A stretch of DNA of 58,663 bases, the filler included, from Dugesia japonica (taxonomy: Eukaryota): NCBI GenBank assembly GCA_001938525.1. It is 5 parts of 5 records of this genome, joined end to end, with 100 filler letters (N's around TTAATTAATTAA, not from the genome) between each part and the next. Parts side by side here need not be neighbours in the genome. Positions count along the whole stretch, not along the records: positions 19,738 to 36,282 come from MQRL01583068.1; 4 more parts are not named here. One strand, 5' to 3'. The position numbers were made by a program, and so were the translations under genes. Shown here one piece after another: positions 7,401-45,123 of the stretch. The stretch's first letter is position 1, and each line of letters opens with the position of its first letter. The notes beneath the pieces are model-generated. The model made no database searches. It saw nothing but the letters and a program-made list of their open reading frames with translations, and was not told the origin of the DNA.

Positions 7401-8504
7401 TTTGATTAATTTGACAAATATTATCCAAAGATTGTAAAATTAAAGTTTTTCTTGTCGGGGAATATTTTTGAGAGATCTTCAAATAACATAAGTGTATTTT
7501 GTAATAAAAAACAATATTATTATACCATTTAAAACACACTGTAAAATCTAAATAATAAGATATAGTCATTTTTTAAAGTAAAAAAATTATTTAATAAAAA
7601 TCTGATCAATCTGTCTGTTTCGTATGTTTGGTTTTTATCTGGTTAATTTTTTCAAACTATTTTATGTTATGATAATTTTTAGGCTTTTTAATTGGAATTA
7701 ATTTCAAGCTTCTTAGTTGGTGATAATTTTTAGACTTTTTAAATTGTGATAATGGATCAATTGATTAATCCATAGAGTACAATTGCATTTAAATTAGTTA
7801 ATCTCATATGATAATAATACAAGTCACTCGTCTTTACATTAAAATTAGTTGACTTTAATTAATAAAATGTTAATAAATGTTATGTTTTAGGAAAAGCCTT
7901 TAATTTCAATTGTAAATTTCATCGACAAAGTTGATTGTATTTAATCAGGGGTAATTATTGCTTATTTCTAGTATATACAGCCAGTTTTAATGATTTTAGT
8001 TAAATAATTTAATTATTAATATAGACCTTTAGTCAACTACCGTTTATTTGTTAAGGAAGTTTCTCGTAATGATCTATTTGCTAAGGAATTTCATTGAAAA
8101 TGGTCCAATTTGAATTTTAACAATAAATTAGTCGTTCCCATGGAATTTTAACATTTATAGTTATAAGATGATAAATAAATTATAAATTAATTATAAGATG
8201 ATAAATAAATTTTAAAAAAATCTTTTCAATTATGTACTTAATGATTAGTTTGCGTAGCTCGAGTAGGGTATGCGCATCTCTGGTAGCACTGATTCTAACT
8301 GTTCCAATCTGGTCATGAATGTACACGGCTACAACAGTCTTTATGAAATAAAAACAATTGGTCATCCTACCTAATCCTTGAGAAGACACAAATCCGAAAA
8401 ATGATATGGAGTCCAATATATGTATGTATTTAATAAAATGATATTTTAAATAAGACAATGATAATAAAATAGAAATAGAGAAAATTCTTAACATTATATG
8501 CACA

Positions 8505-9400
8505 AAGATTTACCTTTCCTATTATTTAAGATGTTTCATTGGATAATATCCATTTCTCAAAAGCAGCTTTTCTTATTGTTTCGCCGTCTTGTCTAAGCAA
8601 TGCTTTAATAACTAGATATTTACTGTACTGGTCTATTATTTCAAAAATATATTTTTTCCGTCTACTTGTTTCTCGCATTGGCCTACATATAAATGTGGAT
8701 ATACCTTCAAACAAATTTTTAGCTAATAAACTCCTTGTCTTTTCTTTAGTTGCTGATGTCACTACTTTGGTCTTCCTATAAATTTCACAATTAAAAACTA
8801 TATTATGTATTTGGTTCCACAAATTCTTTGCAATATATTTGTTTCTCATATATTCGTATACCTTTTCAACTATTACATGTATTTATGTATGACAGTTTAT
8901 GTATTTATTCTATTGTTTCATGTGGTTTGTCATCCGGAATTTTTAATTTTTTGATCAAACCTGTTTCCTCAGAAAGGTTTAAATGATCTTCTTGTTCATT
9001 TTTAATTATATTCAATATTCTCGTTTTATTCTTCCTTTTCTTGGCATTTTTATTTAATATTTGACACTATACCTCACATCTTGATCTAGATAAAATATCT
9101 GCATTAGCATGTTGAATTCTTTTTCTATATTCCAAAACCATGTCTAAGCTGCTCAAATAATTATTCCATGTCTGAAATTGTGACGTAATTGGTTTCTTTG
9201 TCGTCATCATGAAAGTTAAAGCTTTGTGATCTGTTCTAAGAGTGAATCTTCTATCGTACAAGTAATATGTAAAATGCATACAGAAATAATAAACAGCAAA
9301 TAATTCCTTTCATGTAATGAAGTATCCCTTTTCATGAATTGTCAATGAGTGTGATCCATAAGCAACAACTATTTCTCTTCTTTCTTTATCTCTCTGAAAA
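8505..9400 (-). mobile_element. Ty3/Gypsy pol remnant (RNase H and integrase), same family as 42447-45123
   Basis: FTLRTDHKAL, HANADILSR and KYIFEIIDQYSKY. The nucleotide sequence closely matches 42890-43200. Confidence 0.9.
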
Positions 9401-19745: not shown

Positions 19746-20447
19746 CTAGAAATATCTAAGACGACTTTTTAATAATTCTTCATTCTTCAAACTTTCTTTA
19801 AACATGATATCATTGAATGCATCAATATTAGCGAATTTGTTGTTACCGATTAAATGTTGAAATCTTACAATTTCAGATAAATCTGATAAAATAATTTCTG
19901 GTTTTTTCGGTAGATCAGATTCGTCGAAAAATTTCCTAAACTTCACCAGACATCTGTCCTCATGATATATAATCGACCTTAATGAATACCGATTACCACA
20001 AAGATAACAAACAATACTTTGACGAATCATATTGTTATTACTGATATTTATATGGGTATCAATTGGAAAATCTGTTTTATCACCAGCTCCTTTGAATTTA
20101 TTAATAATAACACACTCTTTCTCATGATCTGAAAATCTTTTACAAAAGAACCATTTATTACATGCTGAACAATTGAAATTGGTAAATGTTTCTTGGTTGT
20201 CGATTTGAGTAGTTGATTCGTCGTCAAATTTGAAAAAAAAACAACAGCCTTGATCGATACCGTTTGGAATTTTACTAACGTTTTCTTTAAATTGAACTTC
20301 AAGACTTTTACTTTTTTTATGTAGAATTTTGTTTCGAATTATCGAATTCTTTTTCATTAATGGATAATAAATTAATCTATTTTCATTTGTTTTCAATTCA
20401 GAATTATTGGAACTAGTATTCGGTTTGTAATCACGTAATGCCCGCAT
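19746..20447 (-). CDS. ZNF474-like C2HC zinc-finger protein
   Basis: CSACNKWF..RFSDHEKEC and IVCYLCGNRYSLRSIIYHEDRCLVKF..LPKKP..IDAFN match the ZNF474 zf-C2HC_2 repeat pattern. First ATG at 20447. Confidence 0.7.
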   Translation of the reverse strand: MRALRDYKPNTSSNNSELKTNENRLIYYPLMKKNSIIRNKILHKKSKSLEVQFKENVSKIPNGIDQGCCFFFKFDDESTTQIDNQETFTNFNCSACNKWFFCKRFSDHEKECVIINKFKGAGDKTDFPIDTHINISNNNMIRQSIVCYLCGNRYSLRSIIYHEDRCLVKFRKFFDESDLPKKPEIILSDLSEIVRFQHLIGNNKFANIDAFNDIMFKESLKNEELLKSRLRYF

Positions 20448-20691
20448 TGTTTTGTTTTGTAATTTGAAAAAAAATCTTTCAGTCAATAATAAAATTGACT
20501 TATTATATTTTGTAACTAATATATTTTGTTATTTAAATATAAAGATTTTATTATACTCTTAAAAGTTTAACAATTTTTTAAATCTTTTTTATAATAAAAA
20601 TGTGTGTATCTATGTGTGTGCTTGGTGTGCATTATTTTTTCTACCCTTTTTCTTTAATATAATGACTTATTAAACTTTGGCCCGTATTTTT

Positions 20692-20983
20692 CTGGTCAGA
20701 ATTTTAATACAGTTTTGGTCAGAATTTTAATTAAATTGGTCAGAATTTATATTAAATGGTCAGAATGTATCGGTCAGAATGTATCGGTCAGAATTACAGA
20801 TAGCAGAATACATAATAAATAGTCAAAATTTATATAAAATGGTCCAAATTTAAAATAAATTGGTCATAATATATTCTGACCCTATCATAATTTTATTCTG
20901 ACCGATCTTAATTTTTATTCTGACCATTTATATTTTTATTCTGACCATCAATTTTTAAAATTCTGACCATTTAATTTGTCGCC
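20692..20983. repeat. Foldback element with internally repeated arms
   Basis: Tandem GGTCAGAAT units followed by tandem ATTCTGACC units, which are their reverse complement. Confidence 0.8.
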
Positions 20984-21191
20984 TTAAACCTTTAGTAAAT
21001 TTTTATGTATATCACTCTATTTTACCGTATTTTCTGGTTGATACCGCGTGCGTTATTTATACAAAAAATATAAAAATCGAGAAAATGTGACTGTGCATTA
21101 TACAGAGGAACAAAATTTTATTTAAAAGCGAAGTGTATATTTTATCAATTCGATAAAAGTAGATAGATAGTAGCGCACTGTATCCCCCCCT

Positions 21192-21655
21192 TCAAGGTCA
21201 AATTTTTTCAAGGTCACTGATACAGTATACTTGATTCTGATTGGTCCGTGATCTAGTATACTCAATTATAATTGGTGGAAAATATGAAGGTCAACTTTTC
21301 AAGGTCAAACTGATACAGTATACTCTATTTTGATTGGTCGAAATATTTTCAAGGTCAAAGTGATACAGTATCTTGTGTTTTGATTGGTCAAAGTGTATCA
21401 AGGTCAAAGTGATATAGTTTCCTGCGATCTGATTGGTCGAAGTAGTTCAAGGTCAAAGTGATAAAGTATCTTGCGATCTAATTGGTCAAAGCATTTCAAG
21501 GTCAAAGTGATATAGTATCTTGCGATCTGATTGGTCGAAATGTTTCAAGGTCAAAGTGATACAGTATCCTGTGTTCTGATTTGCCCAAACGTTTCAAAGT
21601 CAAAGTTATATAGTATCGTGCGATCTGATTAGTCGAAATGTTTTAAGGTCATCTG
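21192..21655 (+). promoter_or_regulatory. 49-bp subterminal tandem array containing TCAAGGTCA and TGATTGG (CCAAT) motifs
   Basis: Exact TCAAGGTCA at 21192, 21208, 21299, 21349, 21398, 21447, 21496 and 21545, plus variants. Period is 49-50 bp. The repeat is directly seen; a regulatory role is inferred. Confidence 0.65.
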
Positions 21656-22175: not shown

Positions 22176-22626
22176 TGTTGATTAAAGGAAAAATGTTGAT
22201 TTTGTTTATATTGGCCACTGTTGCAACTTCATCTTCTTTGTTTAACTTGCCTTCTTATTGCAAAAATACATTCCTCGTGCTCATTGTATACTTGCATTTG
22301 AGTTGCATTGTCATTGTTTAACTTGCATTCAAGTTGCACAAGTATGACTCGTAGTTTTTTTCTTCTTGAATTGCATCAGTATTGCATGTTCTTTGTTTAA
22401 ATTTCTTTCTCGAACTTTTAATTTTTAGCCCTAATGAGGACTTATATACTCATAATCAATATTTGTGCTCCTAAAGACGACCGTTACTCGTTCACATATA
22501 TACAATTTTCTTCTTTTTTCTGAATATAAAAATTTTAAATATTATCTAAAATCAAATAATTTCATACTTTGAGATAGATTGGACTGAGAATGATTGAGTT
22601 GAATTGATCTTGATTGAGGAAAAGTA

Positions 22627-25600
22627 TTACAATGAATAATGCCCGTATGGTAAGCTTAAATCTTTCTCTGTCCATACTCGCTTATCATCCTTATTAGACA
22701 GTGCCATATTTTTATTCTTAATACTGTAGAGCTGATGATTTTTCGATGTTATTCGAAATTGCTCTACTGAGACCGTCTCATTATAATTATAACAGTCAAG
22801 GTATGACTGATAACAAATGTCAGTACCTTTTAATGTTATGCCCTTAGCTTTCATTGATTCTTTCTCATTAAGTAGGCTATAACACTTCGGTCTCAAAAAT
22901 ATCCATTCTTGATATTTCTCCTCTTTGCTCTCATCCTTGAACTTGCCAATTACTGAATTTAAACTGTTGCTGTAAAAGGAATGGCTTGTGTTGTAATTGG
23001 ACGTATCTAATAGCTGATCCTTCTTCATTGATCCGGTCAGTTTTTCCAAACTTATGTCTACTACTTCTAAGAAAAAACTATCGGTATCACCGGCTATTAT
23101 ATTTNNNNNNNNNNNNNNNNNNNNNNNNNNNNNNNNNNNNNNNNNNNNNNNNNNNNNNNNNNNNNNNNNNNNNNNNNNNNNNNNNNNNNNNNNNNNNNNN
23201 NNNNNNNNNNNNNNNNNNNNNNNNNNNNNNNNNNNNNNNNNNNNNNNNNNNNNNNNNNNNNNNNNNNNNNNNNNNNNNNNNNNNNNNNNNNNNNATCAAT
23301 TTTTGAGCTGAATTACACAATCTTAAATTCATTCTCTTCTTTAAATTCTCAACTGTTTTACCATACAGCCTATTGTTTAAATATAATTTATTTATAAGAA
23401 TTATTTATAATAATTCTTCTCCAACTCTGATTTACACTCTGATCTTAATTTAGTGTTGACATCTATATATTGTTTGAAAATAGATGCCTGGCTGAACTTA
23501 AAACCTCTATGTACCTTTGTCATTTGTACACCCAATTGCAAATAAATTTGCAGCAAACTCCAGTGTATGACATAATTTTCTTTCGGGTAATGAGTCAGCA
23601 TTAATTTTATCACCTTACTACCTGGAGGACTTTGATGTTCTGCTGCAACAGGTAAATTATTCAGTTTGTCTTGAATTTTTGCTGGTATAACCATATCTAC
23701 TTCTAATGTGTATCCATATGGTAANNNNNNNNNNNNNNNNNNNNNNNNNNNNNNNNNNNNNNNNNNNNNNNNNNNNNNNNNNNNNNNNNNNNNNNNNNNN
23801 NNNNNNNNNNNNNNNNNNNNNNNNNNNNNNNTCGATGTATAATAAATCCGTGTTTTCATTACTAACAACATGGTGTTTATTTACAAATGTTAGCCCACCT
23901 CGTATCCCCTTCAAAAAATGTATACATATCATTATCAGTCAACAATTCAATTGGTTCATTTAATGACATCAATACAGATGCCAAACTCATACCCGGGATG
24001 CCAAAGAATGTTAATGGCTCCAAATTATTGTGTGCCAATGATTTTGTCCTGAACTGTTGAAAGAAATCGGCTAACAAAAACACATCTAATTTCAAATATA
24101 GTAGCAAATAATCCAATAGATTGTTGCATTCTGTTATAGTCCACATTTCCAATGCTTTTTGATAATCCTGCTCATTAACTTCCTCCCATCTTGGTGGCAT
24201 TGTTGTTGTTTCAATCAGAACTCGCAAACTGGTTGCATAATTATAAGGAAATATCCCCTTTGACATTGTTATTCTGCTATCTCTAAATTAATTTGTTGTC
24301 AAAGGTGTCTCTTTTAAGGATTTGACTGCTGCATCCAATGAAGAGTTAATAAATTGATAAGAGTCAATAAATCTGATTGTAATTTCTTTCAGATGTCCAA
24401 TGAGGCATAGGAATTTTTCTGATGTTGTTGGCATGCAGGATATGGTCCAATGAGGAAATTTATTTAATCCATACTTTAATATATGGTGAAGGTCATATCC
24501 TCTCAAATTATGGAAGACTACTGGTAATTGATAGATGATTCGTCTGCTTAAATTGCATTTATTACAGGCGGCTCCTATATACTTACCTGTAAAATGGTCA
24601 TGATCCCGGACTGGATTACTTAAAAGGTTTTTTACACAAATGACATATTGTACTATGTTTAAATTCCATTTCTTGATCCGGGTTCATAATTCGTTTCTTT
24701 TTTCCTTCTTTAATATAATATGGATATACAATATTATTACCAATTTCCTCCACATCCTTTAGAAATTCATATAAGCATTCATTTCCAATAAACTGGCTGT
24801 ATTTGACTTCATTGGTAAAATTATTTACCAACAGCAGTCCAGCTGAAACAGCTAAATGTTTTTGGAAATGCTTTTCATCGCTGGGTAATACCGATTCGAA
24901 ATCAGCATATATAACAAAGGGTGGAGTTATAGTTTTGGAGTAATCTTGAAACTCCAGATTCTTTTCTGTTGGCATCTTGTATAATGTTGTGCCAGTCTGA
25001 ATTTTCTCACAAATTGGCTCATGAGTCTTGTAAGCCGTATTATCCTTGAATCCGTTGAGATAATTCTCGCATCAGATTGCTTGAATTCGAACACCATCCT
25101 TTTTAATATCTCTGTTCATCAATCTATTCAAATTCATTACTGCAGTGTAATGAAATTTGTTGGCATCTTCCAATGACAATAAATTGATTTTTACTCCATC
25201 ACATTTAGACCGATGTATAATGTCTAAATTCGAATGCTTCATTATAACATCATCATCGTCCTCAACTGATTGAGGATTCCATGAAAAACATTAATTGATA
25301 AGCCAAGGTCTTGATTTTCAAATTTTGGTATATTTGTGAGCTTCATTGGCATGTCCCCTTCATCGAATACAAGATCAGACATATTTTGATGCTCGATTCT
25401 GATTTTTTCCAACTTTATCCTTTTTGAGAATTGCTAGGATACTATATATAAAACACATATTATCATTATTCTGTATTTAAGAACGGCTTTTTTATTTTTC
25501 AAGTTTTTTGGTGTTGGAATGTAGCCATGTCCAGATAATCTACTGATATCTGATACCTTTGTGATTTTAAAATTTATTTCCAATATGCGGCTCAGTATCC

Positions 25601-26316
25601 AACTAGATCCGAGCTCGCTTCGTATAGCAATCTTCCATTTAACTGTTTTATTCCATCTTCGAAAAAAGAATTACTCAATGGACTAGCTCGATTTGATAAT
25701 CTACAAGTTTTTGTTACGTCGTCTTTTTCGAATTCAACATTTATTCCGAATTAGATCTTGACATTTTTTAATTCTTCAATAATTTTGAATAACTGCTCAA
25801 TCATGGAGTTTGGTAAAACGATTTCTCTCGTATTCCATCTTGAAACATTCATTTTTAATATCTGGTGACATTTATATAAGTCACTTCCTATTATCACATC
25901 TTCATTGAGGGAGCCACCAGCTTGTGCTTCTTCTTCATCTATAAAACTTTGCATGGCAATATCTTCTTCATCTATTTCATCTATGATTTGAAAATCGGAC
26001 CAATCATCTTCAATTATCTGAGATTCCACCTTTATTTCTCCATCTGAGATAAAATCTTCTTTTCTCTTCTTCGATGGTGGACCATTTATCTCTTTTTCTT
26101 ATATCATCTTCAATAATTGTTTTTTATTTGTTGTAAACTGCCCTGCATGCAACCTATAAAAGTCTAAATATTCACCTATTCCTATAGACATGCATGATGG
26201 ACATATGTAATACTTTTCCTCATAANNNGATTGTGCATAGTATCTCTCCATAGTACTATGACAGTCGCCTTTATGAGTACAATTTGCACAATAATGTTTG
26301 TACATTGTACAACAAT
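22627..26316 (-). pseudogene. polB: Protein-primed DNA polymerase B (EndoVII-domain type), frameshifted
   Basis: Ordered motifs: GSSW, YIPTP..KKAV, CFIYSILA, YADFES, CHLC..DHDHFTGKYIGAACNKCNL, FHNLRGYD, FIDSYQF, KGIFPY, GIRGG, GKFKDE, LRPKCYS, KAKGI, DDKR and PYGHY. Confidence 0.95.
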
Positions 26317-26859
26317 CTGGAAAAAATAAGTTTAAAACATTTTATAAAATTATTAAAATTTATTAAATTATTAAAACATAAAATAAGTTATAAAATGAAA
26401 AACTAACTTTTATCATAAATAGGAGCCGCAACAGGAGAAGAAACAACAGAAGCATCATAAATTTACTTTAATTAAACTCTTTCTTTTGATACATCTTCCA
26501 CCTTGCTTTGAATTATTATAATTCTAAAATAAAAATTAATAATCATTAAATACTAAAAGTAAATTTACATTATCAATCATTAAACTTGACGAATTCATAT
26601 TTCGTTTATCGTTTATATTGTTCATAACCTGAAAGTGTAAAATAAATAAAAATAATAATGAAAATAGTTTACCTTTTCTTCGTTCAACAATTTTCTCAAT
26701 ATGCTTTGATTGTTCATAATCTAAAAATATATATAAAATAGATATAAAAAATAACAAACTTACGTATCAAATTTGTCGCTTTTAAAAATAGTTTTTTGAA
26801 AATTGTGAAAATTTTTCAAAATTAACTGTTTTTATAATGTCAAAATAATTATTCTTTCA

Positions 26860-27040
26860 CCATTGTATGCATGTATTTTAATTTTTCTATCTCCTTTGTA
26901 TGAGTGTATCATATATTTTCTATTCCTTCGATGTGTGTATAATATATTTTCTATTCCTTCGATGTGTGTATAATATATTTTCTATCCCCATTAAACTATT
27001 TGTGTATGTATCATAACTTTTTCTATCCCCTTTGCAAGTG
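26860..27040. repeat. ~30-bp tandem repeats upstream of the pPolB leader exons
   Basis: TGTGTATAATATATTTTCTATTCCTTCGA-like units repeated about 5 times. Confidence 0.7.
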
Positions 27041-27352
27041 TTTATTCAAAATTTTAAAATACCACAACGTAGTATATCAAGTTGTAACAAGAAATCATTT
27101 TTTTATGATAAAATAATTTTAAAGTACTGCAACGTAGTATAATTTTGCATTTACAAATTTATTAGTCATGAAAATAACAAAGACATGTTTTTATTATAAC
27201 AAAGGTCAATTAACTGCTTTATATTTTTATGATTTTAAAAAATTTAACTATTTTATAATTTAAATAAAAATATATCAAATATTTTCATATAATACATTTA
27301 TTTACATACAACATATACATTGTTGATTATTTTTCACATAAAATGTTGATTT

Positions 27353-27736
27353 TCAGATACAATGTTGACTTTTAAGCCACAATAGACAATGTTGACTACA
27401 GGTTGTTGTAAAAGGATTTTGAAATCTAATTTTGTTATATTTAATTGGCTTTGATATTTTTGAGAGATGTGAGACCAATATATGTAGATAATAAAATCCA
27501 AGTGGATCAAAAACTGAAATAATTTCAGGCTTATGATAAACTGCTATCCAATTTTCTCCACAAAGATTTGATGTTTCAGTATTGTAGATTAAGGCTTTAT
27601 TAACTGGAAAGTATGGTAGTTTGTCTAATGTATATACTCCCAACCACGACGATCCCAACAATTTTGATCCAATTTGATTAATCTGAAAAGAACTAATAAA
27701 GTAAAATATTAAAATTAAATGAAAAACTTATTTCAT
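27353..27736 (-). pseudogene. Adenain-like cysteine protease with a 39-nt intron (27693-27731)
   Basis: Spliced product MNSFQINQIGSKLLGSSWLGVY..NT..GENWIAVY..FDPLG..QNPFTTTCSQHC. The catalytic His position reads Asn and the donor reads ATAAGT. Confidence 0.85.
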
Positions 27737-27768
27737 ACTTTTGATTATTTGATTTTATTAGATATTGT

Positions 27769-28065
27769 TTACCGTAGTACTGTTCTATTAGCATTTATTT
27801 GGGTTTCGCTTTCAAATACTCCATTTATTATAACATACGCTTCCGTCTCCAAAGCTTTAGCAAACTTTATATCCAATCTTAAATTTCCTTGTTGAGGCAA
27901 TTGACTCTGATTAATATCGAAGTCTGGAGCAAGTACAAATGTAAAAAACGGATATTTGCTTTTTAATTTCTCAAGTTTTATTCCACAATTCATATTCTTA
28001 TCCAAATATCCCATATTGTACTGTATCACCATTCTGTATTCTACATTTCCAGTATATAATAAGTC
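27769..28065 (-). pseudogene. Major capsid protein (hexon-like), C-terminal fragment
   Basis: FFTFVLAPD, GNLRLDIKFAKAL and VFESETQINANRTV are typical of the F54H12.2-like MCP C-terminus. Confidence 0.85.
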
Positions 28066-30350: not shown

Positions 30351-30635
30351 ATGAAGTAAGTGTTATTAAAGTAATGATTTTTATTTTCATAGTACTATTC
30401 AGATTGATAGGATTGCACCAAAGTGGCTTGGATCAGCATGGTTAGGTGTTTATGCGTTAGATAAACTTCCAAATTATATTACAGTAAACAATGCCTTAAT
30501 TGTCAATAATCATACATCAAATCTAGGTGGATAACATTAAATAGCTGTTAACAATAAATCAGATATCAAAATCCATTTACAACTATATGTGGTCAACACT
30601 GTTAGTTATGGACGAAAAAACAACATTGTACTTGA
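30351..30635 (+). pseudogene. Adenain-like protease with a 37-nt GT-AG intron (30356-30392)
   Basis: ATG AA|GTAAGT..TTTTCATAG|T ACT ATT CAG gives MNTIQIDRI..WLGVYALDKLP..GG*H*IAV..QNPFTTICGQHC. Confidence 0.85.
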
Positions 30636-31397
30636 CAGATTTATATGTACTTGTTGTATAAAATAAATGCTTTTTATTGAAATTAAATCTTTCTTATTTA
30701 TTAAAATTATGAATAAAAATAATAAAATAACAACATTTATTTACAAACTATTTGTTAGTAATATGCTAATAATTCATGTTTTTTTATTATTTTGACACGT
30801 TTTATTATCAAAAAAATAAAATTAATTTAAAATACCACAACGTAATATATCTGTACTTTGAAAAATTAAATTAAAATACCTCAACGTAATATGTCTGCAA
30901 TATTTAAATATATTTTGACATACATATTCGAATTTGATTGGTTAGATTTGAAAACCTTGGTAAAAGTTATTATTCTTCATTATAATTTCAAATTTTCTTT
31001 ACAAAACCAGTGAACAAATAAAAGAACAGTAGAAAATAACAACATTTATTTATAAAATATTTGTAATTATTATACCATTAATGCATGTTTTTTATTATTA
31101 TTTTTTTAAGTTAAATTTTTTTAATATTTTACTTTAAAAACTACTATTATGCTATTTTATTATGAAGAAGAAATGTTCGGTTTGTTTTATGAAAAGTTCT
31201 ATGCTTTTATTATTTTGCTGAGAAAAGTTCCTAGCTAATATGTTTTTTATAGAAAAAGTTCAATGCGTTTTATATTTTATAAAGAAAAATGTTATTAAAA
31301 GTTTTATTAAAATTATTATGTTATTGTTAAAATTATTATTTTATCATTATGTTATTAATTTTTAATTAAAACTATTAAAATCGCATCATTATTTTAG

Positions 31398-33621: not shown

Positions 33622-34326
33622 CCTCATCAAGAACAAAACCGCAAACAAAGGTATTTATTTTGGTTTTTTAAAAATATTAGTTTAATTATTTTTTATTTAG
33701 ATTATGACAAGAAAAGCACAAAAACAACTGTGAACGTATAAATGGTCATCTTTAGGATAAAAAATTGTACATTGAATTGTGAATAATGTTATTATTATTT
33801 CTTATTATTTATTAGGTTTTTTAATGAACATGATGTCAGCATGAAAAAACAAGACGCGAGCATGCGTTGTACATGACATCTGCTTTTTACAAATAATAGA
33901 ATTTAACAATAAATTTAATTTTTAATTCAATTTATATTTTTATTTCTTTCTTACAAATTGAATATTAAAACAAATATAACATTTGGAATTTGATTATAAA
34001 ATTTCCATAATTCGTTATTACAAACTTTGAAGTAATTATTTTCAATTAGCTTTGAAACTTTTCAAGAAAAAGAAATTTCAATTAAACTAAAAAATACTTT
34101 TATAAAATTTGTTTAACAAAATTTAAAATTATTTAAATTTCTATTAATAAAATAATTCGTTAAATAGTTATGATGATCTATAATATTTCTTAAATTTAAT
34201 AAATGAATTCTACTAGAAATTATTCATTTTTTAAAAAAAATATTAATTTAAATTATTATANNNNNNNNNNNNNNNNNNNNNNNNNNNNNNNNNNNNNNNN
34301 NNNNNNNNNNNNNNNNNNNNNNNNNN

Positions 34327-36070
34327 ATGGTTTTACGAGAAACAGTATTTTTATGCCATAACTTTATGTCATTAGAATAAAGTTATTACAAAAAAATTTA
34401 ATAGGACCCACAGTTACCATCTGACAACTGTTGCTATGAATAAGAAAAAAGTATTAAAATTCATTCTAGATAGAGAATTATATGTACGAAATAAGATAAT
34501 TAAGTTGGAAGAACCGGAAGGTATTACTATCAAGGATGAACTGATAGAAGTTATTCTACTTGAAGATGATGATGAAGAAGAAGAATAAATCAAGACGAAA
34601 CTATAAGAATAAACTATCAATCTTGCACCAGAAGGAGAAGCAACCAATAATGAACAGAATTTTACAACAGAAGATTAAAGCAGTTTCGAAATCATTTATG
34701 AATTAGATGAAGAAAAGATTATATAATTCAGTAATTCGTTGATGCAGAAGAAGATATTCAATTTGGCTGTGCATTAAATCTTGTTATTGCCGATAAAAAT
34801 GTAAAAGGATTTATATCGTTATTACCTAATTATAAAAATAAATTTATCAAGTTGGAACAAAATCAAATAATACTAAGAGAAAGCTTGGTTTTCTAAAAGT
34901 TTAAGATAATAAAAGAGTTGAAAAAAGTGAAAATTCAATTTGGAATAACTGTCGAGTTCATAAGGGACGAGGAGATAAAAACTAGCAGAATATCAAAAAG
35001 AGCTATTTCATTAAATAACAGTTCTTTCAAAGACGGAGTAAAGCAATTGAATAAAAAATTGTTAAAAAGACTGAGCTCGGTTTCAGCTAGATACTAAGCA
35101 GAATTTTGAAAGTAAATTTCAAAATCACCAAAGTGAAATTTATTTGCAGACTGTCAAAGCAAAGTTATATATCGACACAAAACAATCTCTCAAAGAAAAA
35201 AGCGATTGTCAATATTAGGAACCATGAAAATAAATGCTTTATTTAGAGCATTCTAGCTATTATAAAAAAAGATCAAGTTAATAAGAAATCCAGAAATAAA
35301 ACATCCGTATATGAAAAATATATGTCTGAGTTAGAATTGGAAAAATCAAACATTCCAATAAAGCTAGATATTATTCTCAAATTTGAAAAAAAAATCCAGG
35401 ATTTTTTTTTCAAATTTGCGAATAATATCTAGCTTTATTGGAATTTTTGATTTTTCAAATTCTAACTCAATGCCTTTTCATGGAATTCAAATGACATGAA
35501 AAATGGCGATGAGGAAGTTTTCAAACATTTTAATTTAGATATAATCAAAAGGTCTAATGTAGTTGATGGTAAAAAAATATATCTGTTGTTGCTAAAAGAT
35601 TGCAATAAATACCATTACACAGGCGTAATGAACTTTGATAGGTTGGAATTGCCAACAAAGGAGCTAACATGAGAATTCAATCAATATGTTGTTAATATTG
35701 TTTAAATGGATCCAGAAAGGAAATAGCTTTAGAGNAGCATCAGATAATTTGCTAGAAAATTCAAACCGAAACAACTTTATATACCACGCTGACCAAAAGC
35801 AATTTAGAGTTAAAGCATTTCTCTAAAGCTCTAACACCACAAATCCTCATATATGCTTATTTTGAATCAGTTTTGCCGTCGAATGAACATATGCCAGTTT
35901 CAGAAGGAATACTGTTAGTAAATAATTTTTCTAACAAAAGAACATATAAAGACCTCATTGAAAATGACTGCAAATATGATTTTCTAAACAAAATTAATGA
36001 AATCAACCACAATATAGTGTCTTCATGTTACACACTACATGGAAATAACATAATTGCAATTATTAGTTAA
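34327..36070 (+). pseudogene. polB: pPolB copy C, N-terminal half only
   Basis: Collinear with 24700-26230 of copy A: FYEKQYFLC, acidic tract, KKAIVNIRNHENKCFI, YHYTGVMNFDR and YAYFESVLPS. Confidence 0.85.
35328..35468. repeat. Fold-back inverted duplication (~70-bp arms) inside pPolB
   Basis: GAGTTAGAATT..AAAATCC A GGATTTT..AATTCTAACTC. Confidence 0.9.
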
Positions 36071-38458: not shown

Positions 38459-38856
38459 ATGAATAAACCTGAAACACCAAATCCTATCAAAATCGAAAAT
38501 GAAACAGAAATTAATAAAGACGAAATTTCTGAAGATAATCAGTCAATTGATAAAAATAAAATGCAAGACATTAAAAATAAGGACTTATATTTTCCTAGAA
38601 GATATATTGTTTTAGCTTTATGTTGGAGTGGTTTATTTATAATACATGCTATGAGAGTGAATATTGGAATAACTGTGGTGACAATTTTGGATATTGAAGC
38701 TCATTCTAAAGTTGGTAGTAAAGAAGCTGTACAAAGTTTACCTAATGTTACGTGGAACTCAAAAATGATTGGGTTCCTTCACAGTGTATTTTATATAGGA
38801 TTTATTTTAACTCAAATTCCAGGAGGATGCATATCTAGGAAATCATTTGCAACTAA
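38459..38856 (+). CDS. SLC17-family (VGLUT/sialin-like) MFS transporter, exon 1
   Basis: PRRYIV..MRVNIGITVV and WNSKMIGFLHSVFYIGFILTQIPGG. Donor GTAAGT at 38857. Confidence 0.9.
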
Positions 38857-38903
38857 GTAAGTGGATATTTAATTAAAATGTTATAATTATCTAATTTATT
38901 CAG

Positions 38904-39021
38904 ATTATTTAGTTTGGGTATTGTAATTTCTTGCATTTTAAATGTTTTATTACCCATTGGAATACAAAGTGCAAATTACTACTTCACGTGTTTCATCAGA
39001 TTTTGTCAAGGTTTATCAGAG
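38904..39021 (+). CDS. SLC17-family transporter, exon 2
   Basis: Follows a 47-nt intron and reads in frame LFSLGIVISCILNVLLP..IRFCQGLSE. Donor GTAATA at 39022. Later exons were not found in this scaffold. Confidence 0.88.
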
Positions 39022-39684
39022 GTAATAGGTTTAATTTTTTTTGAAAATGTTTTTATTAACTGAATACGCTTGGATGAATAACAGTGGGAATCAAAACACT
39101 TATTCCAAAAAATCCCATTAGTGAACTTTGCAATGTTTTTTAATATTATTGAATAATTTCTTCCAGTTTTTTTAAAATAAATCAAATTTTTTAAAACATT
39201 TTCAAAATATTAGTACCCAACCTTTTTTGTAAACCGGCCGCATCATCAGCTTAAATCAAAGTTGCTTGGCATGCATTCAAAAATTGCGGGCCGCAGGTTG
39301 TGCATCACTGATATTATAGGTACTATACTATACTATATAGCTTCAAAAATTTAATATAGCGCTGTTAAAGTTTCATTTTGTGAATAGAATTTTTGAATTA
39401 TTTGTTGTAAAGAACTATGTTTCTATAAAAAAATACATTTTAAAATTTTCATGAACTTGGATCGCCGACCACGGGTTGTGCATCACTGGCTTATATGATG
39501 ATCAAAATTATTAAAAAATCGATAAAAGGAAGAGACAAGAATTTGAAAACAAAATAATGTTTCCGTAAAATTATTTAATATATATATATATATTAGATGA
39601 TAAGAATATTTAAAAAACTATTAAAGAAAGAAATACGCAAATTTTTTGAAGTTATAACAAAATTGTACCCATTATTTCTTAGAT

Positions 39685-42446: not shown

Positions 42447-45123
42447 AACATCTTAAGCAGAAAGAAAGGTGCATTATCCTCGTCTTGTTTAGGCAATGTT
42501 ATCAGAACCAGATATTTACTGAACTGGTCTAATATTCGAAAAATGTATTTTTCCGTACACTAGTTTACCGCATTGGTTCACATATATCTGTGAATATGAC
42601 TTAAAACAAATTGGTAGCTTCTAATCTTTTTGTCTTCTCTTTAGTTATTGTCTTCAATACTTTAGTATTCTGACAGATTTCACAGCTACGAACTATCTTC
42701 TGTATTTGGTTCCACAAATTCTTTGTAACGTATTTCTTTCTCATATAGACATACACCTTTTCAACTACTACATGATATAGTAATTTGTGTTTTTCTTCTA
42801 TTGTCTCACTTATATGTCATTCTGAATATTTATTTTGTTGATTAAATCATAAATGGTTAATTGCTCATCTTCTGGCTTTTCGATTGTGTTCAGTATCTGG
42901 TTTAAATCTTCCCTTTCTTGATATCTGCGTGTGACATTTGGCATTGTATGCATCCCTTACATCTTGGTCTAGATAACATATCTGCATTACCATGTTGAAT
43001 TCATTTTCTATATTCCAATATTATGTTTAGACTACTGAGATAATTAATCCATGTCTGAAATGGTGACGTAATTGGTTTCTTTGTCGTCATCATGAAAGTT
43101 AGAGCTTTATGATTTGTTCTAAGAGTAAATCTTCTAATGTGCAAGTAATGCTTGAAATGAATGCAGAAATAATAAGCAGCCAATAACTATTGACTTTTCA
43201 TTGACTGTAATCTATGAGCCACAACTCTTTCTATTCCTTCTTTATCTTTCTGTGACAGTACAGCTCCAGTTGTATCAAAATTGGCAGCTGTATCTAATAC
43301 AAATCTTTTATTTATATCTGGATAACACAATATTGACGCAGTCATTAGAGCTTTCTTTAGAAAGTATCGTTTATTTTGTCTCGTTTTTAATTGCATAATT
43401 CAAATAGTAATTACAAATTTCTAAGAAACCTCTGAACTTCTTCACACAGTTAGTTTTACCAAATGTTCTTTTTGTTTCTAATTTAGCTGTATCAGTACTA
43501 ACATCATCCCTGTTAATTATGTATCGATGAAATTTGATTTCGCTTAGAAAAAACTGACACTTTTCCGAATTAATTCTTAAACCAGCTATCATTATTTCCG
43601 TCAATATTCTTTCTATTACTTCATAGTGTTGAATTTTATTGTTCGTAAATATCAGAATGACATCAAGATAAACGATGGCTCCACTTTTGTCACAATCTCC
43701 TGAAATGTACCTTGCACCGCTGCAATGTCAAATGGCATTCTATTAAAACAATATTATCCATGTTTCGTTGTAAACGCCGTTTTTTCTTGAGAATATTCTT
43801 CGAACTTTACCTGATAGTATGGGTTTCCAAAATCTATTGAACTGAAATATTTTACTCCATCTAACGTGTCCAGCCTTTTATCTACGTTAGCCATCGGAAA
43901 GGTTTCATTACTGCATTCAATTGTCCAAAATCCAAACATATTCTTATGTCCTTCTTTTCCTTTTTTCAAACAAAAGTCAGTGGGATATTCCACGGAGAGT
44001 TGCATTTCCAGATTATATTATTCTCAAAAGGTCTTTNGATAGCTTCTTCAATTTAAGCCTCTAAGTTCATTGCTTGTTTGTACGGTTTCATATTGATTGG
44101 TTCACCACTTATAATTATTTTGTGTTTTATCAGATGTGTACATACTACACCTTATTTATCTACCATGAAAACATCTTTATTTTCAATTATATTCAATAAC
44201 CGTTGATCGTCTTTAATCTACAGAATATTTAAAGCTCAATATTTTAACTTCAATCACTCACCAAATGATGTCCAATGTCCACCATTTTCACATCGTTTAT
44301 ACCATACTTCTTGACATAACCTTTTAATATGGCCAACCTTTCCACAACTAAAGCATTTTGTTGGTTTTTTATCTGGACAAACTTGACTTATATATCGTGT
44401 TTTATAACAAGTCCAACACTCTACCACTTTTATTGTCGGCAATTTATTTTAGTATGACAGATATTATGACAACCAACATTAGATATTTCGTTTTTTCTTT
44501 CTTTGATCCACTGTTTTACAGGTAATTTCGACTTGTAATTCTGGCTTTGATTTCTGCTCTTTTCTATTCGATCTACTAATGTCATTGTTTCTTCAATCTC
44601 TTCTATATTCTAACGTTTCCGCAAAGTAACCTCTTCTTCAACTTTTTTGTTATCTGAACAATAAACTAGTATCTTTGCTACCATTTTATCCTCTGTAGAA
44701 TATTTATTTGAGAAAAATCTTTTAAATTCTTAAAATAAACTTGAATCTCATTATTTTCACGCCTGTAGTTAATCAAATTTTGAAAATCTTTTTTACATTT
44801 TTTCTTACTCAAATGCCAAACGTAAACGAGCCTGAAACCCTTCAAAGTTAATCAATGTCTTCACATACTCTTCCAACAAATCGTCATCTAGCAAATAAGA
44901 GACTGATTTCTCCTGTTATTTCATTTGGGTGAAGTTTTTATCCTCATAATACAATTCACAACGCTTTCTGAAGTTTTCAATGTCATCTCCTCTACAGAAC
45001 ACATTTGGTAATAACCTATCAGTAATAGAATCGGTAATTACCGCTGCCACCATGTTAGGTACATCTTATGAAGATAATTGATTTTCGAAATCACAACAAT
45101 TAATTTCAAACATATTTGTATTT
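42447..45123 (-). mobile_element. Ty3/Gypsy LTR retrotransposon (LTR end, PBS, gag with zinc knuckles, RT, RNase H, integrase), decayed; lies antisense downstream of SLC17 exon 2
   Basis: LTR end ..AACA followed by PBS TGGTGGCAGCGGT. CFSCGKVGHIKRLC, YFSSIDF, KTAFTT, YLDVIL, FVLDTAA, FTLRTNHKAL and ILDQFSKY. Confidence 0.92.
45040..45052 (-). other. Primer-binding site (tRNA-Leu-like)
   Basis: TGGTGGCAGCGGT immediately follows the LTR-terminal CA. Confidence 0.65.

What the first reader, a model, noticed from the sequence alone, without database searches (positions are those of the whole stretch)
26317..26763. Chain of four GT-AG introns and mini-exons leading into the pPolB reading frame
Seen on the minus strand: introns at 26721-26763 (43 nt, GTAAGT..TTTAG), 26629-26672 (44 nt, GTAAAC..TTCAG), 26524-26568 (45 nt, GTAAAT..TTTAG) and 26317-26407 (91 nt, GTTAGT..TCCAG). 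The 48-nt and 60-nt exons join in frame as MNNQSILRKLLNEEK-VMNNINDKR.. and continue to a KQGG motif. Copy B has an acceptor TTTTAG at the equivalent position (~31397). Inference: the polymerase is expressed through a multi-exon leader or spliced N-terminus, loosely like adenovirus E2B splicing.
Basis: partly seen in the sequence, partly recalled or inferred. Interest (0 to 1): 0.7.

Follow-up and report, generated by a model that had tools for sequence, protein, structure and literature searches.

The report
Spliced mini-exon start on Polinton polymerase
The DNA polymerase gene of a decayed virus-like Polinton element, in what is likely an animal genome, is preceded by a chain of tiny host-style introns, one of which is cut out exactly in RNA from sister copies, and splicing likely joins short exons that supply the protein's start, although intact vertebrate elements of this kind are described as intron-free.

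Summary
The four GT-AG introns are at the stated coordinates; 1 of 1000 shuffles matches them under a rule written after seeing them. They precede the pPolB gene of a decayed copy of a many-copy Polinton/Maverick-type family. PolyA RNA reads from sister copies skip intron 3 exactly (5 reads, 2 of 4 runs, one study); introns 1, 2 and 4 have no listed junction. The last acceptor has the same place and phase in copy B and, judged from its protein, in a 57%-identical relative. Four metagenome relatives of the same clade have their own chains of 44-52-nt introns; 9 of 9 internal exons keep the frame, but at other positions. The protease-like gene shares an intron right after its ATG. Verdict: real host-type splicing that likely supplies the polymerase's start; not adenovirus E2B-style shared leaders. 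Eight literature searches found no description; this scan noted the same layout before in other genomes.

The parts
26721..26763 (-). intron 1 (43 nt), in the 5' untranslated part, 3 nt before the ATG at 26717
   Evidence: no junction listed, the stretch is skipped as a repeat by read laying
26673..26720 (-). mini-exon 1 (48 nt), holds the likely start codon
26629..26672 (-). intron 2 (44 nt), phase 0
   Evidence: no junction listed
26569..26628 (-). mini-exon 2 (60 nt); its start resembles that of exon 1
   Evidence: z 3.5, weak
26524..26568 (-). intron 3 (45 nt), phase 0; skipped exactly in RNA reads of sister copies
   Evidence: X23 4 reads from 3 starts, X24 1 read, X21 and X22 none
26467..26523 (-). 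mini-exon 3a (57 nt, stop-free, basic patch and KQGG)
   Evidence: shorter side of the joint is 57 nt; 6 RNA reads leave the window's sequence at 26467
26317..26407 (-). intron 4 (91 nt), phase 1; its acceptor marks where homology to relatives begins
   Evidence: no junction listed
22633..26316 (-). body of pPolB, copy A: Cys/His-rich module, acidic linker, predicted terminal-protein and vOTU regions, exonuclease and polymerase; broken by stops and frameshifts
   Evidence: domain names by analogy to bioRxiv 10.1101/2024.03.18.585575, not tested by structure
26845..26986 (.). 31-bp tandem array upstream of the leader, possible promoter region (untested)
27356..27736 (-). protease-like gene of copy A with a 39-nt intron-like stretch (27693-27731) after ATG-AA; donor decayed in this copy
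27775..28044 (-). 3' fragment of the major capsid protein gene, copy A
   Evidence: 60% to L001 ORF; L001 ORF: double jelly-roll-like clusters, score 0.97
21158..21651 (+). terminus-like end of copy A (AGTAGATAG..) followed by a 49-bp tandem array
   Evidence: end motifs in PMC8097293
30351..30626 (+). protease-like gene of copy B with a 37-nt GT-AG intron (30356-30392) after ATG-AA
31391..33582 (+). copy B pPolB: acceptor ending at 31397, same place and phase as intron 4; internal part missing

Best explanation
These are host-style spliceosomal introns at the front of a Polinton/Maverick-type DNA polymerase gene, and in intact family members the host spliceosome likely joins the mini-exons to give the polymerase its start codon and a short N-terminal extension. 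Shown: the introns and exon phases in the window; exact removal of intron 3 in RNA of sister copies; a fifth intron in sister copies; the last acceptor at the same place and phase in copy B; frame-keeping mini-exon chains in four relatives. Inferred: removal of introns 1, 2 and 4; translation from the ATG at 26717; an Asn-rich, partly basic extension (possible nuclear-import signal) ahead of a Cys/His module and the terminal-protein domain; growth of such chains by tandem duplication of intron-plus-exon units. The copy in the window is a dead fossil.
For: Exact 45-nt CT..AC joint in polyA RNA, all 5 reads with the first mate on +, as expected for a minus-strand RNA in a usual stranded library. 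Six RNA reads leave the window at 26467, the boundary before a GTAAAT donor, and the intron-3 joint has a 57-nt short side, which fits a second splice there. Homology to the intact relative P0007 starts at window 26317 with its residue 8; its first residues (MFFFLRL) look like a read-through acceptor, and copy A, copy B and P0007 each have 8 codons from that point to the same Cys. Copy B has no Met between the acceptor and the Met of MERYY, yet conserved coding sequence lies between them. In L002, L003, L005 and L007, 12 introns of 44-52 nt are all phase 1 and 9 of 9 internal exons are multiples of three and stop-free; these loci fall in one clade (FastTree support 0.994) with the window's closest proteins. 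None of the other 54 scored loci has more than one such intron on the sense strand. A phase-2 intron after ATG-AA is shared by the protease-like genes of copy B and L001. A neighbouring host gene has a 47-nt intron of the same make.
Against: Only intron 3 has a listed junction, from 5 reads in 2 runs of one study; 2 of 4 runs show none, and at 26531 inside intron 3 run X23 has depth 19, so most reads there are unspliced. An opposite-strand 72-nt joint inside the polymerase in 3 runs shows that cryptic splicing or deletion variants occur in these transcripts. The DNA control is incomplete: 15 of 35 joint rows were shown. Only 5 of 3455 laid RNA reads are 99% alike, so the evidence is for sister copies. 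Intron positions are not conserved: in L002 the chain lies behind the Cys/His module, and L001 and L002 have a Met directly at that module. One AT-rich locus (L061) gave 3 hits on the antisense strand under the same rule. Acceptors and donors in relatives were picked by my rule, and one exon is shared by L005 and L007, so at most 8 of the 9 exons are independent. No protein evidence.
Confidence: 0.8

Rival explanations
1. The stretch is AT-rich spacer DNA that the host spliceosome cuts now and then; the polymerase starts at a Met behind intron 4.
For: Most reads over intron 3 are unspliced; an opposite-strand joint exists inside pol; gene callers start P0001 and P0002 at the Met of the MERYY-like motif; L001 and L002 have a Met at the Cys/His module.
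Against: Conserved coding sequence upstream of that Met begins at the acceptor in copy A, copy B and P0007; 9 of 9 internal exons in relatives keep the frame; 1 of 1000 shuffles.
Confidence: 0.1
2. The exons are spliced but form a leader with a short upstream reading frame that damps polymerase translation rather than adding residues.
For: In this copy the ATG frame stops in exon 3; intron 1 is untranslated; the extension has no conserved sequence between lineages.
Against: The stop lies where this copy is damaged relative to sister copies; the chains of relatives are in frame with pPolB.
Confidence: 0.06
3. The mini-exons are a captured piece of a host gene, or introns gained by single copies after insertion (introner-like), and play no part in the element's life cycle.
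For: Introns match host style; introners are known to enter maverick-polinton-like elements after integration in dinoflagellates (10.1101/2025.03.18.643946, passages).
Against: The leader region is covered by many divergent genomic copies (1837 contigs of X1 on 1.1 kb, with pieces spanning introns 1-3); the protease intron is shared with a distant relative; the window's introns do not resemble each other (z at most 1.3).
Confidence: 0.04

Closest known systems
Polinton/Maverick elements (adintoviruses with Alpha-type PolB: OTU plus pfam03175; PMC8502044, passages)
   Same: pPolB of the PF03175 family, double jelly-roll capsid gene, terminus-like AG/AGT end; the close relative L001 also has rve integrase and an A32-like ATPase.
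   Different: Intact vertebrate elements are reported with intronless genes, in agreement with Kapitonov and Jurka 2006 (PMC8097293, passages); here pPolB and the protease-like gene carry short spliceosomal introns at their 5' ends.
Adenovirus E2B transcription unit (recalled, no call)
   Same: A protein-primed polymerase whose start codon comes from a small upstream exon; related virus lineage (10.1101/2024.03.18.585575, passages).
   Different: Adenoviruses use long introns and shared leader exons for separate terminal-protein and polymerase mRNAs (recalled); here several tiny introns sit in one gene with a predicted fused terminal protein, and exon number and place vary by lineage.
Introners in dinoflagellate maverick-polinton-like elements (10.1101/2025.03.18.643946, passages)
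   Same: Spliceosomal-type introns inside Polinton-like elements.
   Different: Those are mobile intron families gained mostly after integration; these are not alike to each other in the window, cluster at the gene's start, and one position is shared across distant elements.
Group I introns in polinton-like viruses (PMC12220804, passages)
   Same: Introns in a related class of element.
   Different: Self-splicing, 309-376 nt, in a small gene before the capsid gene; unrelated in kind.

Membership tests
Polinton/Maverick | [quoted passage not shown] | tested here: met
   PF03175 hits in 3 of 27 window pieces, one above the cut-off; intact relative P0007 E 4e-32, 33-85% identical to copy A over 8 pieces
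Polinton/Maverick | [quoted passage not shown] | tested here: met
   window fragments 49-64% identical to an L001 ORF whose Atlas neighbours score 0.97 and carry PF21738 in 15-65% of members
Polinton/Maverick | retrovirus-like integrase and packaging ATPase | tested here: inconclusive
   present in the relative L001 (rve E 1.4e-12, Pox_A32 E 5e-6); no match in the window at E 1e-4, where the copies are truncated; no whole genome held
Polinton/Maverick | adenovirus-like cysteine protease | tested here: inconclusive
   homologous ORF after the capsid gene in both copies and L001; no Pfam hit, only a weak PDB hit to a viral cysteine protease, E 0.64; named by position
Polinton/Maverick | terminal inverted repeats with AG/AGT end motif and 6-bp target duplication | tested here: inconclusive
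   one terminus-like end at 21158, no partner in the window
Polinton/Maverick | terminal-protein and vOTU domains in front of the polymerase | not tested
   assigned by position and analogy to 10.1101/2024.03.18.585575; no fold was run
Intact vertebrate Mavericks (descriptive trait, not part of the definition) | intronless genes | tested here: not met
   against PMC8097293
Adenovirus E2B unit | separate terminal-protein gene and leader exons shared by several mRNAs | tested here: not met
   relatives encode one 1238-1268 aa frame from the Cys/His or acidic region through the polymerase; no joint from the leader to another gene was listed in 24000-28000
Introner | many near-identical intron copies at unrelated sites | tested here: not met
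   window introns pairwise z -1.2 to 1.3; genome-wide copies could not be searched

The most novel reading that the evidence does not exclude
One clade of Polintons has made host splicing a required step of its cycle: start codons of the polymerase and the protease sit on upstream mini-exons, and the polymerase's N-terminus is an accordion of symmetric micro-exons that grows by tandem duplication of intron-plus-exon units and can be skipped singly, varying import signals and protease sites on the terminal-protein precursor and tying each lineage to hosts with very short introns.
Probability: 0.25. Interest if true: 0.72.

Novelty: new variant of a known kind. Interest (0 to 1): 0.52.

Why it matters
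Polintons are usually mined and judged intact as intronless frames. A clade with spliced starts would be mis-annotated (truncated N-termini, as in P0001, P0002, or intron read-through, as likely in P0007) and under-counted. Spliced polyA transcripts show nuclear transcription by the host machinery and give a direct test of which copies are expressed. The varying, in-phase chains offer a compact case of intron gain by tandem duplication in a virus-like element, and intron size may mark the host group of metagenomic Polintons.

Tried and rejected
No whole genome is held, so copies could not be counted or compared genome-wide. The look-up of sequencing runs: no RNA holder listed among indexed runs; the RNA runs used came by species label. 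X8 and X11, guessed as RNA, behave like DNA (high intron cover, no intron-3 joint among the rows shown) and were not counted as RNA evidence. Reads with loose ends at 26377 and 26412 match only about 36 AT-rich bases and were set aside as unrelated. Viral contigs gave nothing with P0002 and 2 distant loci with the alignment. Tandem duplication of intron-exon units is clear only in L003 (z 5.8) and L005 (z 7.4); in the window it is weak (exon starts z 3.5, introns 1.3), and an unrelated host intron reaches z 4.8 against L005, so lower values were rejected. KQGG does not fit the Q-x-G-G/S pattern seen at 'QAGG' behind the module and in the small core-like protein of L001; its role as a protease site is unsupported. 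The integrase and reverse-transcriptase pieces at 8.5 kb and 42-43.7 kb belong to another element. The first tree run failed on a row name and was redone with FastTree on 53 rows, 32 short matches left out; the window's own copy is not in the tree, P0001 stands in for it. Scan notes by place and by sequence found no look-alike.

Full report
Observation. A simple intron rule, written after I had seen them, finds 4 non-overlapping introns in 26300-26800; 1 of 1000 dinucleotide shuffles reaches 4, the opposite strand has none, and among 411 tiles of the window the only one with 3 is this region. An in-frame stop just before intron 1 makes that intron untranslated and the ATG at 26717 the likely start.

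Context. The chain lies between a protease-like gene and a pPolB gene on the minus strand. Comparison with a 12-kb metagenome locus (L001) maps capsid, core-like, protease-like and polymerase genes in two decayed copies, A (about 21.2-28.0 kb, minus) and B (28.6-33.6 kb, plus), with further fragments at 0-2 kb and 34.9-36.0 kb. L001 also encodes an rve integrase and an A32-like ATPase, and its capsid ORF lies next to double jelly-roll clusters in the Atlas (0.97). Copy A ends in a terminus-like AGTAGATAG.. at 21158 with a 49-bp array; no partner end is in the window. Copy A's polymerase aligns to the intact relative P0007 in 8 pieces over three frames, 4 with stops: it is a fossil. A VGLUT/SLC17-like host gene (E 5e-11) with a 47-nt GTAAGT..TTCAG intron suggests an AT-rich animal with very short introns; a planarian would fit, but this is my inference and no call names the host.

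RNA. Four RNA runs of the same species label (2 studies) were laid on 24000-28000; of 3455 reads only 5 are 99% alike, so they report sister copies. One joint skips 26524-26568 exactly, with CT..AC ends: 4 reads from 3 starts in X23, 1 in X24, none in X21 or X22. Its shorter side is 57 nt. On the narrower lay, 6 X23 reads leave the window's sequence at 26467, just before a GTAAAT donor at 26466, while other RNA reads and DNA contigs carry extra intron-like sequence a few bases further on. I read this as a fifth intron in sister copies, bounding a 57-nt phase-0 exon; the window's copy is damaged there. Against: introns 1, 2 and 4 have no listed junction (intron 1 lies in a stretch the tool skips; one joint was dropped there in X24); most reads over intron 3 are unspliced (depth 19 at 26531 in X23); and a 72-nt joint with the opposite mate direction inside pol, in 3 runs, shows that other splicing or deletion variants exist. 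In the DNA run X1, 1837 contigs lie on 1.1 kb and listed pieces span introns 1-3 unspliced; the intron-3 joint is not among the 15 of 35 joint rows shown, so this control is incomplete. None of the 40 of 224 substitution rows shown (13 within the finding) hits a GT or AG.

Relatives. A protein search gave 4 hits among 317 candidates. P0001 and P0002 start at the Met of the MERYY-like motif; P0007, from P0002's cluster (57% to the query piece), starts MFFFLRL and its match to the window begins at 26317, the intron-4 acceptor. Copy A, copy B and P0007 each have 8 codons from there to the same Cys, and both window copies are phase 1; the acceptor in P0007 is inferred from protein only. Of 82 loci fetched, 60 had enough upstream DNA to score: the 6 closest have 1, 3, 3, 4, 0 and 4 sense-strand introns, the other 54 have at most 1 (11 have one), and one AT-rich locus has 3 antisense hits. 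Walking upstream exon by exon in L002, L003, L005 and L007 gives 12 introns of 44-52 nt, all phase 1, and 9 of 9 internal exons that are multiples of three and stop-free; one exon is shared by L005 and L007, and sites were chosen by my rule. L006 has a 121-nt phase-1 candidate between two Cys-rich modules. These loci form one clade with P0001, P0002 and P0018 (10 of 53 rows, support 0.994; 29-71% pairwise identity). Positions differ: in L002 the chain lies behind the Cys/His module and L001 and L002 have a Met at the module. Neighbouring introns are near-duplicates in L003 and L005 (z 5.8, 7.4), weakly or not in the window. The protease-like gene has an intron right after ATG-AA in copy B (37 nt) and L001 (39 nt), with the same flanking bases, and a decayed counterpart in copy A.

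Mechanism. Shown steps are listed above. I infer that the host's polymerase II and spliceosome make an mRNA in which 4-5 short introns are removed, giving an Asn-rich, partly basic extension of roughly 70 residues ahead of a Cys/His module, an acidic linker and the terminal-protein, vOTU, exonuclease and polymerase regions (domain order from 10.1101/2024.03.18.585575, passages; not tested by fold). The extension is not conserved between lineages, so it is probably a tolerant region where introns accumulate; symmetric exons let units duplicate or be skipped without breaking the frame. A regulatory role is possible but not shown.

Literature. Eight searches listed no paper on spliceosomal introns in a Polinton pPolB leader. 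Read as passages: PMC8097293 (no introns in intact vertebrate elements; end motifs), 10.1101/2023.08.22.554363, PMC8532177 (planarian Polintons are transcribed and piRNA-silenced), PMC6431247, 10.1101/2024.03.18.585575, 10.1101/2025.03.18.643946 (introners), 10.1101/2024.03.25.586562, PMC5803895, PMC8502044 (Alpha PolB), PMC11296320, PMC12220804 (group I introns). No supplements were read; genome maps there, Repbase entries and the 2006-2014 founding papers (not seen) may hold exon annotations. The adenovirus E2B comparison is recalled. Five earlier notes of this scan describe spliced pPolB genes in other genomes; they are unchecked and are not counted as evidence. What this window adds is an exact RNA junction, a clade-level pattern and a shared protease intron.

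Verdict. Real feature; new variant of a known kind; interest 0.52.

Noticed in passing
window 30356-30392 (+), 27693-27731 (-); L001 4962-5000 (-): The protease-like gene has a 37-39-nt intron directly after ATG-AA, shared between the window's copies and a distant relative.
   Followed up: partly
window 22520-22567 (-) and 33651-33700 (+): 48-50-nt GT-AG intron candidates just behind the polymerase stop in both copies, before a further small gene; in copy B the acceptor is followed by ATTATG as at intron 1.
   Followed up: no
window 24247-24318: A 72-nt joint in 3 of 4 RNA runs with the opposite mate direction to the intron-3 joint: possible antisense splicing inside the polymerase gene, or a deletion variant.
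   Followed up: partly
window 21158-21651: Terminus-like end of copy A with a 49-bp tandem array of about 7 copies.
   Followed up: partly
L001 11333-11806 (-): The Polinton-like relative L001 encodes a TATA-binding-protein-like ORF (PF00352, E 1.7e-18) next to its ATPase.
   Followed up: no
L006 120-900: pPolB relative with two Cys-rich modules separated by an intron candidate and an Ala/Glu-rich repeat.
   Followed up: partly
window 38459-39022 (+): Host VGLUT/SLC17-like gene with a 47-nt intron (38857-38903).
   Followed up: partly
window 8183-9396 and 42481-43727 (-): Two related retrotransposon pieces (integrase zinc-binding domain, reverse transcriptase), 75% alike.
   Followed up: no
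window 19746-20528 (-): A 260-codon frame outside copy A's terminus with Cys/His pairs and no Pfam hit, next to 21-bp repeats at 20693-20977.
   Followed up: no
window 34918-36043 (+): A displaced piece of the polymerase's N-terminal half lies behind copy B, whose own gene lacks that part.
   Followed up: no
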